A stretch of DNA of 64,000 nucleotides. It comes from Octopus sinensis (lineage: Eukaryota). This document shows, one piece after another, positions 251 to 31,173 of this stretch. The translations under genes and the position numbers were made by a program. The first letter of the stretch is position 1. Each line of letters opens with the position of its first letter. The stretch lies in assembly GCF_006345805.1 (NCBI RefSeq), contig NC_043010.1, positions 558,001 to 622,000 of the forward strand. The letters run 5' to 3'. The notes below the pieces were generated by a model. It was not told where the DNA came from. It did no database searches and worked only from the letters and a program-made list of their open reading frames with translations.

Positions 251-398
251 AAGACAGCGGTGCCATCTAAAATCGATGACAAGAAAGACCATCTGACCAC
301 AAACCATTTCAGAAATTGGTCAACTACATTTTCTGATTCTGACACTGGCTGTGGCTGGAAAGAGGGAGACACCGCTAGACTCTACGAAGAATTACCAG
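251..398 (+). CDS. Internal coding exon of an unidentified host gene (KTAVPSKIDDKKDHLTTNHFRNWSTTFSDSDTGCGWKEGDTARLYEELP + 1 nt G)
   Basis: Pyrimidine-rich acceptor ...cctgtctttgatctgttcag at 250; 148-nt open, non-repetitive, GC-richer sequence; donor CCAG|gtaggc after 398 (phase 1). Overlaps ORF 260..457. Confidence 0.75.
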
Positions 399-1524
399 GT
401 AGGCCATCAAAAGTAAAAAAAAAAAACACACAAAAACCAAAAAATATAAATAATTAACAATAATAATAATGATGATGATGATGATGATGAAATTTGAAAG
501 CAAACAAACAAAAATAATAATATAATAAATAAATAAAAATATAATGAAAAATTTTCATTTTATATTTAACCAAAAATAACAAAAGAAGAAAGGAAATGAA
601 ATTCAATTTAGTGATAAAACGGAATATATAGTAGTTGAAAGGAAATTAAAAATAGATGAATATTTCATTTATAAATCAATAAATATATATTTGTTAATTA
701 ATAATTTTTCTCCAGGTACATAATTTACCTGGAGAACAGTAATTAAATATCAATTATGAAAATAATTTCTACAAAAGAAATTATCTGCATATATGTATGT
801 ATATATATATATATATATATATGTATATATATATATATATATATACATACACGCACACATACACACATACACATAATATATATATAATTTCTGGGCTGGT
901 GTTTGTAGTTCCTCTCCCATTATCCAATTTTATTTCAAACGGTCTAATATTATTTTTTTGTTTGTTGCATTTGTGTCAGTTGTGTTTTAGCCCTTAACCA
1001 AATTTAATATCTTAGTTTATATATACATACATACACACATGCTCACACATATATGTATGTGTATGTATGTATGTATATATATATATATATACACACACAC
1101 ACACACACACATACACACACTCTCTCTCTCTCTCTCTCTCACACACATACACATAAACACATTCTCATATATATATATATGTGTATGTACACACACATTT
1201 ATATATTGTTATATTTGTTGGCAGAATCTTGAGGGCATCGTATAAAATGCCTTGTGCTGCTAGTTAGTTCAGTACCTAAATGCTTTAGCTTAAATTCCCA
1301 GCCAAGATCAGCTTTGTCTCTCATTCTTCTAGAACTCATAAATTAAGTGCTAGTCAACTTCTGATCTATTAATTAATTCTTCCCTCCTCGCAAGTTTTGG
1401 TCTTGTATCACTGTAAAAGATCAACATTATATTATTCAATATTTAGTTAATTATTTGTTGGGTTCAATAAATATTATTAAAATTTTTATTCAGGTGAATT
1501 TCCTTTCAACTCGTGAAATTAACA

Positions 1525-1746
1525 TGTAAATGGCTGAGTATACCAAAGATACATGCATTCTTTAATATGTATCTCAAGCTATAAATGGCTGAATATACCA
1601 AAGACACATGCATTCTTTAATATGTATTTCAAGCTGTAAATGGCTGAGTATACTAAAGACACATGCATTCTTTAATATGTATCTCAAGCTGTAAATGGCT
1701 GAGTATACCAAAGACACATGCATCCTTTAATATGTATCTCAAGCTG
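1525..1746. repeat. Minisatellite, 4 x 55 bp, amplified from an interspersed-repeat segment
   Basis: Units start at 1525, 1580, 1635 and 1690; a related single-copy version lies at about 13977-14033. Confidence 0.9.
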
Positions 1747-2289
1747 AATCAATGACATATATTACGTAACAAAGTTGGACCTTTGAATTACAGATGCAAC
1801 TCAGAAAGAGAAAGAGGGAGAAGTAGATAGATAAATAGAGAGAGAGAGAGAGAGAGAAAGAGAGAGAGAGATAAGAGAAGAGAGAAATTATGTAGCACTG
1901 GCTTGACACTTTATTTATTGCCCCTCCCCCTACCATCCCCTGAGAGGATGAAAGGTAAAATTGATCAGAGCAATAACTTAACTCAGGTCACAGTAAGATG
2001 CAATGAATACTGTAAAGCATTTAAACCAATGTTCTCATGATTCTGCTAATTGATATTCTTAATTAAAATACAGGGCAGAAAACTGACAGAAGCTGTAGAG
2101 TTTCAGACTAAATACGTTTTGATGTTTAGTTATACATCTTCCTTTAGGTTCAGGGCTCAAATGCCATTGAGGCTGATTTTGCATTTGATTCTTTTAGGGA
2201 CCGGTAAAATAAAGTACCAGTCATGTAGTGGTGTTGGATCAGAGTTGAAGACAGTTCTGAGGATAAAATGTAACTTGATTTATTAAAGA

Positions 2290-27420: not shown

Positions 27421-29341
27421 AAAGTCTCAGCTTATTTTGCTGGGTCTGATGGAAAGTGTTATTTTGTAAGGTACAACAAAGAGAAAAATACAACACAAAC
27501 TAAAGTCTAACAAAACTTCACTTTGGATGGTTGATCTACATCAGCAATTTAAACAACAAACCCCACAAAAGACAAACACAAAAAAAAACTGTTAATGAAA
27601 TTTTGTAAAATAAAATGTGTATGTCATGAAGAAGAGAGGTGAGTTCCTAAATTTTGGACAGAGACAATCGTCTTTGAAGAAATGAGAAAATGTGTGTAAA
27701 AAAAATCTATTGATGTTTTTGTAATTGTTGCTTAATTGTGTTGTTGTTGCTCTGATTGTAGCTGTTTAGCCCTAAATCGAAGTGAAACTAATCTGTGATG
27801 AAAGCTAATCTAGCGTTGACCATGATATCGTTTTCCCTTGAATGAATAAGATTCTGATTTATTCCTCCTTCTTTAACTTTCCTATTAACCTCGGCTGCTG
27901 TTGAAGGAGGTTCGGTACTGGGGGAGCTGTTTACCCTTCCCTATCTAAATATTTAGCTCATATAGGTTCTTCTGTTGACTTGGCTAGATTGAGTGACCAC
28001 AGGAGCTTCCACATTAAACCGTGTTGTTGTTGTTTTAACTCCAGGTTAGTCTTGATTGATTAAAGCTGTGATTAAGACCATTCTAGTATTGACCCTCCCC
28101 ATCCAATTCCCCTTTTTATATAATTCACAGACTACATTGTCAAATCATCATCATCATCATCATCATCACTGTCGTTGTTGTTATTATTATTTAATATCCG
28201 TTTTCCATTCTGGCTTGGGTTACATGGTTTGATAAGGTCTAACAAGTTACAGAGTTGCATTAGAATCCAGTGTCAGTTTTGGCATGATTTCTCTGGCTGT
28301 TTGCCCTTCTTAATGCCAACCACTTTACAGTATGTATTGGTTTTTTTTTCATGATCTTGATATTTCTAATTTTACTCTGTTTCTTTGGTATCCACTCTAC
28401 TACTAGATGGGATTGCAAAGTCAGTGTTGTTACACTGTTTGCCCTTGTTAACTTGGTAGAATCGGTAGAGCATCTGTCAAAATGTCTTTCAGTATTTAAT
28501 TATATCTCTTTATGTTATGAGTTCAAATCTTGGTGAATTCAATTTTGCCTTTCATCTCTCTTGGCTCATTAAAACAAGTTTCTTTTAAAATAATTCATCA
28601 TTTTTAGTATCCTCTTGTGTTTCCATAAAGTGTAGTCACAAGATAAAACAATCTGGAAACTCAACATTGACCAATCTTCTTTCACTATTGGTCCCTATCT
28701 CTAGCTTTGTTAAATCTAATATTTTAGGTCAGACCCTTATTAACTTGAAAAATGTGTGTCCCCCTACAAAGCTCTTTTGACATCATAATATATTTGTGTT
28801 AATTCAATCCAGCTGTGCACTCTCCACAAAATGTTTCCCATGTTCCAATATGAGAAGTTTGTGGGGTTTTCATGAGCTGCCCTCCGAAGCCAAGAGACTT
28901 TTGGAGAATTATTCATTGTTATAATTTTTATTGTTTTTGTTGTACATAATGTATACATGTAAAAACCTTTGTTTCTATGTATGTATTTTCTTCTGTTTCT
29001 TTGCAAATGTCTTTTGTATCATTCTACGTAGGCCTTTGGGGCCAATTATTGTTGTCAGAATTATTTATTATATGTTTGGCTTTTGCTTCGTATTTGTACA
29101 AGTTGACTCCAAGTCTCACCCAGAGACCTCAAGAGACAACAAGTTAGAAGTTCAAGTTGGTATTATGACTAGGGTTCCATATTTTTAGTTTTAATTTTGC
29201 ACAAAATATTGTTCTAGTGAATGTCTGTGAAAACACAAGAAAATTAGAAGTTTGTTCTAAAAGTAATTTGGTTATAATATGATAGTGTGATGTTAAGATG
29301 TATTATTATTATTATTATTATTATTATTATTATTATTATTT

Positions 29342-30610
29342 GGGTGGTGAGCTGGCAGAGTCGTTAGCCTGCTGGATGAAATGCTTAGCGATATTTCACC
29401 CATCGCTACATTCTGAGTTCAAATTCCGCTGAGGTTAACTTTGTATGCCATCCTTTTGGGATCGATAAATTTAGTACCAGTGAAATTCTGGGGCTGATGT
29501 AACCGACTAGTCCACTCCCCCAAAATTTGAACTGAAAGCGTATAAGCATTTTGTCAGATGTGCGAACAATTCTTTTAGCTCACCATCTTTACTCTTTTAC
29601 ATGTTTGTGCCTACAATAGAAAGGATTTATTTTTAAGGTGGCAAACTGGCAGAATTGTTAGCATGCTGGGCAAAATGCTTAGTGGTATTTCACCTGTTGC
29701 TATGATCTGAGTTCAAATTCTGCCGAGGTCGACTTTGCTCTTCATCCTTTCAGGGTCAATAAATTAAGTACCAGTTGTGTATTAGGGTTGATCTAACCGA
29801 CTAACCCCCTCCCTCCATATTTCAGGCCTCGTGCCTATAGTACAAAGGATTATTATTATTATTATTATTATTATTATTATTATTATTATTATTATCATTA
29901 AGGTAGTGAGCTGGAAGAATCTTTAGCACTTTGGACAATATGCTTATTAGTAGCATTTCTTCTAGCTTTTCACATTCTGAGTTCAAATTCTTCCTAGGCT
30001 GACTTTAGTTTTCATCCTTACATGCTCAATAAAATAAGTACCACTTGATTACTGGAGCCAATGAAATTGAATCCATCCAACTAAAATTGCATGTTTTGAG
30101 TCAAAATTTTAAACCATTATTATCATTATTATTATTAAGATGGTGAGCTAAAAGAATTGTTTGCACATCTGACAAAATGCTAAGTGAGATTTCTTTGAGC
30201 TTTCAGTTCAAATTCTGCTGAGGTTCACTTTCCCTTACATCCTTTTGGGGAAAGATAAAATAAATACCAGTTGAGCACTAGAGCCAATGAAATTGAATCT
30301 CCTGTCCCTAAAATTGGTGGCCTTGTGCCAAAATTTAAAACCATTATTAATATTACTACTACTACTACTACTACTACTACTACTACTACTACTATTATTA
30401 TTACTATTATTAATTATTATTAGGTAGTGAGCTGAAATGTTTAGTGGTGTTTTGTCCATTTTTATGTTTTGAGTTCAAATTCCGCTATGATTGACCTTGA
30501 TGTTCATTCTTTTGGGGATGATAAATTAAGTACCAGTGAAGCCCTGGGGTTGATGTGATCGACTATCTCCTTGCCCCAAATTTCAGGCCTTGTGCCTATA
30601 ATAGAAAGGA
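29342..30610 (+). mobile_element. Head-to-tail cluster of about 5 SINE family A copies joined by (ATT)n
   Basis: Copies start at about 29342, 29637, 29901, 30139 and 30422. Confidence 0.8.
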
Positions 30611-30808
30611 TTATTATTATCATTATCATTATTATTATTATTATTATTATTATTATTATTATTATTATTATCATTATTATTATTATTATTATTATTATTA
30701 TTATTATTATTATTATTATCATTATTATTATTATTATCGTATTCATAATATTGTACCTAAGATTATTTTTTCCTTTTTTTTTCCTTTTCTTCTTCTTGTT
30801 TTCTTTAG

Positions 30809-31173
30809 GAATCTATGCTTGCCCACCAGAACAGTTACCGAACTCAGCTACGAAAGGCCAATCACAATTTATCAATAGACCTAAAGTTACAGGCACCACG
30901 CGGCCTGCATGCCAGCCAAATGTAGACAAGAAAATTTCATGTAACGACATCATTGATCTCAAATCGATTTCAGCAGCAAACCCCAACTCTCTAACTGGAA
31001 CAAACTCTTGGAATTTGCCTTTCCGAAACAGCTTTACTTCATATGCCAAGCCTCTGCCAGCAGTTCCAAAGATGCCATCCTTACCAACTTCCACAAAGTT
31101 GTCCCCACCAGCCAAACACTTAAAAGGGGGTTTATCAAATATGATGCTTCATCATGAGACAGCTACATCATGA
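30809..31173 (+). CDS. Candidate alternative terminal exon C: GIYACPPEQLPNSATKG...MMLHHETATS* (about 121 aa, S/T/P-rich)
   Basis: Long polypyrimidine tract ending ttttctttag at 30808; 365 nt of unique sequence open in phase 1 (tail of ORF 30571..31173). A phase-0 reading (ESMLAHQNSYRTQ...HASQM*) is also possible. Confidence 0.6.

What the first reader, a model, noticed from the sequence alone, without database searches (positions are those of the whole stretch)
251..31173. Cassette of alternative last exons giving one protein several C-terminal tails, two starting with DISSR
Seen: the phase-1 donor after ...TARLYEELP+G joins in frame to acceptors at 11241 (DISSRPGWSVEQQIREV*), 13341 (ADISSREGPFKDSEC*) and 30809 (about 121-aa S/T/P-rich tail), and possibly 21733 (AGSYQS*). 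DISSR uses different codons in the two exons (ATC AGC TCA AGA versus ATT TCA TCC AGG), consistent with an old exon duplication under protein-level selection. Inference: a receptor- or channel-like cytoplasmic tail with a YxxL motif (YEEL) at the junction and swappable ends; DSEC fits a class I-like PDZ ligand. I cannot name the gene.
Basis: partly seen in the sequence, partly recalled or inferred. Interest (0 to 1): 0.75.

Follow-up and report, generated by a model that had tools for sequence, protein, structure and literature searches.

The report
Octopus protocadherin with annotated alternative tails
This is the tail end of an already annotated octopus cell-adhesion (protocadherin) gene: its long last exon is real and shared in kind with about 35 cluster relatives, while the two look-alike "DISSR" tails are likely a coincidence, because one of them is simply the sequence of a repeat scattered across the genome.

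Summary
The gene is an octopus clustered protocadherin (RefSeq "beta-18"-like). 251-398 is cytoplasmic exon 2; the ectodomain exon lies 6-8 kb upstream. All four joins translate as stated, but any AG gives some tail (median 14 aa). Only 30809 is supported: it is the annotated last exon in two octopus species and Argonauta, the best of 1548 acceptors, and carries a motif block shared with 34 other cluster loci. The duplication idea fails: 13341 lies inside a dispersed repeat whose other copies already spell ISSR or ISSK; 11241 has a weak acceptor (rank 310) and no DNA likeness to it; none of 114 proteins ends in a DISSR tail. Alternative ends do exist in gene models, by other routes: skipping exon 2 shifts the frame of exon 3, and a fourth exon sits on a contig that overlaps the window's gap. 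All 12 genes checked have several annotated ends, as vertebrate protocadherins do. Junction reads to 11241, 13341 and 21733 were not tested. Side lead: the conserved last-exon block resembles WIRS and SH3-ligand motifs.

The parts
251..398 (+). Cytoplasmic exon 2 of the protocadherin (phase 0 in, phase 1 out; ends in YEEL); skippable
   Evidence: 100% identical to residues 811-859 of named Octopus protocadherins; covered by contigs of 4 of 4 runs laid, two of them with spliced-looking ends
30809..31173 (+). Canonical last coding exon 3 (121-aa tail after exon 2)
   Evidence: Annotated in RefSeq X1 of two species (P0003, P0007) and joined to exon 2 in the Argonauta fragment P0042; best of 1548 acceptors; 34 paralogous exons on the same contig
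30809..30925 (+). Second reading frame of exon 3 (38-aa tail) used when exon 2 is skipped; lacks the conserved block
   Evidence: Annotated isoforms P0002 and P0005 in three species
31009..31068 (+). Conserved last-exon block W-N-L-P-x-x-N-S-F-T-S-Y-x-K-P-L-P-x-x-P (WIRS-like stretch followed by a proline-rich SH3-ligand-like stretch; function inferred)
   Evidence: N, F, K, P invariant in 30 of 30 paralogous exons fetched; no Pfam family
13288..13833 (.).
   Evidence: 74 matches listed genome-wide at 65-87% identity (lower bound); extent and inverted arms; other copies encode ISSR in 2 of 7, ISSK in 2 of 7, ILS- in 3 of 7
11241..11293 (+). Unsupported candidate last exon (17-aa DISSR tail); single-copy, weak acceptor
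   Evidence: Only self-matches at DNA and protein level in the genome; acceptor rank 310 of 1548; absent from annotated isoforms
21733..21752 (+). Untested candidate last exon (6-aa tail, NAGNAG acceptor); single-copy
   Evidence: Acceptor rank 17 of 1548; single-copy; not in any annotated isoform
8479..8498 (+).
   Evidence: P0009 (UniRef only) ends in this peptide after exon 2; acceptor rank 98
48724..49780 (+). Overlap with unplaced contig G000:C2683 up to the N gap (49681-49780); that contig carries the annotated alternative last exon 4 at C2683:5916, roughly window-equivalent 54.6 kb
   Evidence: 978 bases at 95.5% ending at the gap; exon found; frames

Best explanation
This is the 3' half of one octopus clustered protocadherin gene whose main transcript joins the ectodomain exon, exon 2 (251-398) and exon 3 (30809), and whose alternative tails likely come from exon-2 skipping and a distal fourth exon, not from a duplicated pair of DISSR exons. 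Shown: the gene's identity, the three-exon layout, the conserved block in exon 3, the repeat origin of the 13341 sequence, and the place of exon 4. Taken from gene models: four ends (exon 2 to 3, 121 aa; exon 1 to 3 in a shifted frame, 38 aa; exon 1 to 4, IMKR; exon 2 to 4). Inferred: a GC donor on exon 1 and a middling acceptor on exon 2 favour skipping; every short form keeps the same adhesive ectodomain but drops the conserved exon-3 block, so tail choice would switch a signalling or actin-linking module on or off; any use of 13341, 11241, 21733 or 8479 would be minor, lineage-specific cryptic termination in a 30-kb repeat-rich intron.
For: Identity and layout. Exon 3: rank 1 of 1548 acceptors, 35 matches on contig C14 including this one, same join in Argonauta. 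Repeat origin of 13341. No DISSR tail in the 9 of 9 cluster members of this gene or in 114 proteins held. Contigs of runs X8 and X12 match through base 399 (G) and run on 25 more letters; 26 letters into a G-starting exon is what a 31-mer graph gives if exon 2 joins exon 3 and merges with the exon-1-to-3 skip path (shared 4-base suffix); of the named candidates only 30809 starts with G followed by a non-T. This last step is inference: the letters were not printed. All 12 genes examined have more than one annotated C-terminus and 7 of 12 have a non-canonical exon after the exon-2 donor, different in each gene.
Against: No junction reads were tested for 11241, 13341, 21733 or 8479. The DISSR coincidence appeared in only 1 of 27 control stretches at matching acceptor strength. 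The acceptor matrix is trained on exon-3 paralogs only, and exon 2's own true acceptor scores just 5.2. A repeat-derived tail is annotated after the exon-2 donor of a paralog in three species (P0078, P0080, P0083), so repeat origin does not exclude use of 13341. Gene models are predictions; the Argonauta and O. vulgaris ones may lean on homology.
Confidence: 0.8

Rival explanations
1. One or more of 11241, 13341, 21733 and 8479 is a real but minor or tissue-specific alternative last exon (13341 by exonisation of a repeat); DISSR is still coincidence.
For: 7 of 12 genes have private alternative exons after this donor, one of them repeat-derived and annotated in three species; 21733 has a decent acceptor (rank 17), 13341 rank 61; 8479 matches one gene model; 11241 and 21733 are single-copy sequence.
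Against: 11241, 13341 and 21733 are in none of the 9 annotated members from three species; 11241 scores below all 29 training acceptors.
Confidence: 0.3
2. One reading: 11241 and 13341 are anciently duplicated last exons kept by selection on a DISSR motif, one ending in a PDZ ligand.
For: The 5-residue match is real and uses different codons; only 1 of 27 control stretches has a comparable match at the same acceptor strength.
Against: 13341's codons are those of a dispersed repeat family (ISSR in 2 of 7, ISS- in 4 of 7 other copies; AG at the acceptor position in 4 of 6 copies that cover it); local DNA alignment score between the two sites is at background level (19); no paralog has such a tail; the PDZ pattern fits 70 of 1239 random tails.
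Confidence: 0.04
3. The downstream exons are constant exons shared by several protocadherin first exons, as in vertebrate clusters.
For: The gene sits at the end of a tandem cluster; RefSeq numbers two neighbouring paralogs in one isoform series in two species, hinting at some shared non-coding exon elsewhere in the cluster.
Against: No other ectodomain exon lies in the 200 kb upstream; the other 34 last exons are on the opposite strand and each gene has its own; among held proteins, shared C-terminal stretches between unlike ectodomains were orthologs, fused models or the conserved motif itself; PMC9068888 states cephalopods use full-gene duplication.
Confidence: 0.02

Closest known systems
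Octopus clustered protocadherins (O. bimaculoides chr 14 sub-arrays; RefSeq 'putative protocadherin beta-18', XP_029645522/XP_052828785)
   Same: Same protein: exon 1, exon 2 and exon 3 are 100% identical to XP_029645522; cadherin repeats, one TM segment, three coding exons, full-gene tandem array.
   Different: This copy lies at the end of the array on the opposite strand from the other 34 loci; its exon 4 is on an unplaced contig and its longer frame carries a stop that O. bimaculoides lacks.
Vertebrate protocadherin tail isoforms (Pcdh-alpha A/B/O; delta-Pcdh long/short forms)
   Same: One ectodomain, long and short cytoplasmic tails by alternative splicing, the short forms losing conserved motifs (PMC7339444 section 25).
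   Different: Independent expansion; no shared constant exons; the conserved block is octopod-specific in these searches (24 of 24 hits Octopus or Argonauta); no functional data.
WIRS (WAVE regulatory complex interacting receptor sequence)
   Same: F-T/S-S/T-Y/F followed by x-K sits in the cytoplasmic tail of a protocadherin, as WIRS does in delta-2 and alpha Pcdhs.
   Different: The consensus needs F at position 4 (PMC10318009); this gene and 26 of 30 paralogs have Y, 3 of 30 have F, 1 has H.
Exonisation of dispersed repeats as alternative last exons (Alu-like; recalled)
   Same: 13341 lies in a repeat that carries an AG at that position in 4 of 6 copies; a paralog has an annotated repeat-derived tail.
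   Different: No evidence that this copy is spliced; repeat class not established.

Membership tests
Protocadherin (cephalopod clustered type) | Tandem cadherin repeats with protocadherin-type first repeat, single TM segment, cytoplasmic tail | tested here: met
   Pfam PF00028 (6 stretches) and PF08266 above cut-off in P0003; hydrophobic segment near residues 690-712
Protocadherin (cephalopod clustered type) | Ectodomain and TM on one large exon, own downstream exons, tandem array of full genes on one chromosome | tested here: met
   Residues 1-810 on one exon; 35 last-exon matches within 0.59-9.19 Mb of contig C14
Protocadherin (cephalopod clustered type) | Homophilic adhesion and neural expression | not testable with these tools
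   Only contigs of runs guessed to be RNA were available
Duplicated alternative-last-exon cassette | The alternative exons are homologous to each other | tested here: not met
   No DNA homology between 11241 and 13341 (score 19); 13341 is homologous to a dispersed repeat instead
Duplicated alternative-last-exon cassette | Each exon is spliced to the common donor in transcripts | tested here: inconclusive
   30809 supported by gene models and, by inference, contig ends; no reads could be laid across the joins to 11241, 13341, 21733
Duplicated alternative-last-exon cassette | Tail peptides conserved in related species or paralogs | tested here: not met
   No DISSR tail in 114 proteins from four octopod species; DNA of relatives was not available, so this covers annotation only
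Vertebrate-type variable/constant exon cluster | Several first exons spliced to shared last exons | tested here: not met
   One ectodomain exon in 200 kb upstream; each paralog has its own last exon
WIRS | Hydrophobic-x-T/S-F-x-x consensus | tested here: not met
   F-T-S-Y in this gene; strict F in 3 of 30 paralogs
WIRS | Binds the assembled WAVE regulatory complex | not testable with these tools
   Complex exceeds the folding size limit; needs a pull-down
Class I PDZ ligand | S/T-x-hydrophobic at a real, conserved C-terminus (pattern recalled) | tested here: inconclusive
   Pattern fits DSEC but also 70 of 1239 random tails; the tail is repeat-derived and unshown as protein

The most novel reading that the evidence does not exclude
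The octopod protocadherin array carries an undescribed, invariant last-exon signalling block (a WIRS-like F-T-S-Y followed by an SH3-ligand-like K-P-L-P-x-x-P) that couples adhesion to the WAVE/actin machinery, and each gene switches it off by exon-2 skipping with frameshift or by private alternative last exons, converging on the long/short tail logic of vertebrate Pcdh-alpha and delta-2 protocadherins.
Probability: 0.2. Interest if true: 0.6.

Novelty: already known. Interest (0 to 1): 0.25.

Why it matters
What could matter is the side result. The papers seen say no vertebrate-like intracellular motif was found in octopus protocadherins (PMC6339937), yet some 35 genes keep one tight block in their last exon and drop it in their short isoforms. 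That gives a concrete, testable handle on how cephalopod protocadherins signal.

Tried and rejected
Run search: no holder on record as RNA was listed; no evidence either way. Contigs could be laid only on 200-480, so no joint across the intron was seen and the 3' overhang letters were not printed; lack of a branch at 398 in X8 and X12 is not proof of absence. Rfam scan of 8000-32000: 115 matches at E up to 1, none at a gathering score, nearly all simple-repeat miRNA look-alikes. Hammerhead-like core in the 13341 repeat: a degenerate core in the window copy and in 2 of 7 other loci by a loose pattern; too weak to class the repeat (the Penelope-like resemblance is recalled, not tested). Poly(A) signals: uninformative, about 2.2 AATAAA per 1.5 kb by background; none within 1.5 kb after 11241. 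Paralogs of the 11241 exon: none by DNA or protein. Shared constant exons: rejected. Earlier findings of the scan: nothing in three look-ups. The end of C2683 did not overlap the sequence after the gap, so its placement rests on one side. Albertin 2015, Wang and Ragsdale 2017 and Chen 2014 were not held; they may already describe the tail block or the tolerance of Y in WIRS. No structure or complex prediction was run: the tail is low-complexity and the WAVE complex is too large.
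Full report
Observation. Exon 251-398 is flanked by AG and GT, enters in phase 0 and leaves in phase 1, and the joins to 11241, 13341, 21733 and 30809 give tails of 17, 15, 6 and 121 residues. DISSR occurs at only those two places in the window's six frames. But a last exon needs no downstream frame, so every AG gives a tail: among 1548 AG sites in this intron the median is 14 residues and 49% reach 15. In-frame joining is therefore no evidence.

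The gene. The exon-2 peptide matched one cluster, 100% identical, named putative protocadherin beta-18 of Octopus. Its 9 of 9 members come from O. bimaculoides, O. sinensis and O. vulgaris. Residues 1-810 (cadherin repeats, TM segment, proximal tail; Pfam) lie on one exon at G000:C14:549814-552243, 5.8-8.2 kb before the window, ending in a GC donor. No other ectodomain exon was found in the 200 kb upstream; the next is about 206 kb downstream.

Exon 30809 is the canonical last exon. It completes RefSeq isoform X1 in two species (P0003, P0007), and the same join is in an Argonauta gene model (P0042). Its acceptor ranks 1 of 1548 under a matrix built from 29 paralogous acceptors. A 40-residue piece of it found 36 matches among 40 candidates scored, 35 on contig C14 between 0.59 and 9.19 Mb; this gene is on the plus strand, the other 34 on the minus strand. 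This fits the published sub-arrays of full-length genes (PMC9068888, passages seen). In the 30 exons fetched, five positions are invariant and nine more nearly so.

Transcript evidence is thin. Contigs from four runs guessed to be RNA were laid on 200-480. X4 and X6 include intron sequence. X12 carries 27 letters of exon 1's end before position 248. X8 and X12 both match through base 399, a G, and go on for 25 unprinted letters. Exons 1 and 2 share a 4-base suffix, so a 31-mer graph in which both join the same next exon would cut the exon-2 contig 26 letters into that exon, which is the length seen. Of the named candidates only 30809 begins with G followed by a base other than T. I read this as support for both exon 2 to 3 and the skip form; it is inference, and contigs cannot show that minor forms are absent.

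The DISSR pair. The 13341 site lies inside a dispersed repeat: 74 matches listed at 65-87% identity on many contigs, from 40 of 155 candidates scored, some places counted twice. The element spans about 13288-13833 and has inverted internal symmetry. In the 7 other copies fetched, the same register reads ISSR in 2, ISSK in 2 and ILS- in 3; an AG aligns to the acceptor in 4 of the 6 that cover it. The peptide is thus the repeat's own sequence, not a diverged copy of 11241, and the two sites share no DNA similarity (score 19, background level). The 11241 site is single-copy and its acceptor ranks 310, below all 29 training sites. None of the 114 proteins held ends in such a tail; the one DISSR word in their last 200 residues is internal to exon 3 of a paralog and is DIGSR in its ortholog. 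Against my reading: a comparable non-homologous 5-residue match was found in 24 of 27 control stretches with any AG but in only 1 of 27 at the pair's own acceptor scores; the matrix is narrow, scoring exon 2's true acceptor only 5.2; and a paralog has a repeat-derived tail annotated in three species (P0078, P0080, P0083), from a repeat word seen 16 times in the 464 kb held. DSEC fits a class I PDZ pattern (recalled), as do 70 of 1239 random tails here. 21733 has a fair acceptor (rank 17) and is single-copy but appears in no gene model.

The alternative ends that are on record. Gene models show four routes: exon 2 to 3 (980 aa); exon 1 to 3, skipping exon 2 and reading exon 3 in another frame (848 aa, three species); exon 1 to a fourth exon (814 aa, ending IMKR, two species); and exon 2 to that exon (893 aa, O. 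bimaculoides). The fourth exon is on unplaced contig C2683, whose first 984 bases overlap window 48724-49680 up to the N gap (978 bases, 95.5%), placing it near window-equivalent 54.6 kb; only that side overlaps. Its short frame is intact here, while the longer frame has a stop after 18 residues that O. bimaculoides lacks, suggesting weak constraint on that tail. One O. bimaculoides model ends at window 8479, and two models (O. vulgaris, Argonauta) read through the exon-1 donor. Across this gene and 11 paralogs, 12 of 12 have more than one annotated C-terminus (some are intron read-throughs) and 7 of 12 have a non-canonical exon after the exon-2 donor, different in each gene (one cluster listed 15 of 19 members).

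Mechanism. Most likely the gene makes a long form with the conserved exon-3 block and several short forms without it, all with the same ectodomain. Shown: layout, conservation, repeat origin. From gene models: the isoforms. Inferred: that the GC donor and middling exon-2 acceptor favour skipping, that the block binds signalling partners, and that the short forms uncouple adhesion from that signalling. The YxxL at the end of exon 2 is family-wide (first match in 36 of 45 full-length proteins) and would be kept in all exon-2 forms.

Comparison. Alternative cytoplasmic tails are established for vertebrate Pcdh-alpha and delta protocadherins (PMC7339444, passages and section 25). The locus works like those but is not a vertebrate-type variable/constant cluster. 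The exon-3 block was found only in Octopus and Argonauta proteins (24 of 24 hits, top 7994 candidates scored) and matches no Pfam family. Its F-T-S-Y resembles WIRS, but the consensus has F at position 4 (PMC10318009, passages), met in 3 of 30 paralogs and not in this gene; K-P-L-P-x-x-P fits a class I SH3-ligand pattern (recalled). PMC6339937 (passages and supplement passages) reports no vertebrate-like tail motifs, and its motif table does not list this block. Searches listed no paper whose title or abstract describes it, but Albertin 2015, Wang and Ragsdale 2017 and Chen 2014 were not held and the supplements of PMC9068888 were not read, so it may be in print. bioRxiv 10.1101/2022.10.13.511954 (passages) added nothing on Y tolerance.

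Verdict. An annotated octopus protocadherin with ordinary tail isoforms. The DISSR cassette is most likely coincidence between a repeat and a weak cryptic site. Interest 0.25, mostly for the conserved last-exon block.

Noticed in passing
window 31009-31068 and loci L045-L073: A block W-N-L-P-x-x-N-S-F-T-S-Y-x-K-P-L-P-x-x-P is conserved in the last exon of 30 of 30 cluster paralogs fetched; WIRS-like and SH3-ligand-like; not in the one published motif table seen.
   Followed up: partly
proteins P0025/P0092-P0097 and P0039/P0104-P0107: RefSeq numbers two different full protocadherin coding units as one isoform series (X1-X5) in two species although they share no protein sequence; may point to a shared non-coding exon between neighbouring cluster genes.
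   Followed up: no
window 48724-49780; G000:C2683: Unplaced contig C2683 overlaps the window up to its N gap and carries the gene's annotated fourth exon.
   Followed up: yes
G000:C14:549814-552243 (L002): Exon 1 ends in a GC donor; read-through gene models in O. vulgaris and Argonauta end with the same residues, suggesting the GC donor is conserved.
   Followed up: partly
G000:C14:0.55-9.19 Mb: This gene is the outermost of 35 related loci and the only one on the plus strand; an unrelated-subfamily ectodomain exon (49% identity) lies between it and the array at about window +205.7 kb.
   Followed up: no
window 13288-13833: Repeat with inverted internal symmetry (13441-13617) and a degenerate hammerhead-like core on the minus strand near 13484; class not established, no Rfam ribozyme match.
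   Followed up: partly
window 8326 and 11635: Copies of a common repeat offer fair acceptors (scores 5.0 and 5.6); the same repeat word forms an annotated alternative tail of a paralog in three species.
   Followed up: partly
L048, L052, L056, L059: 4 of 30 paralogous exon-3 sequences have a donor-like site right after the conserved block, used in gene models of two genes to add a short fourth exon; this gene lacks it.
   Followed up: partly
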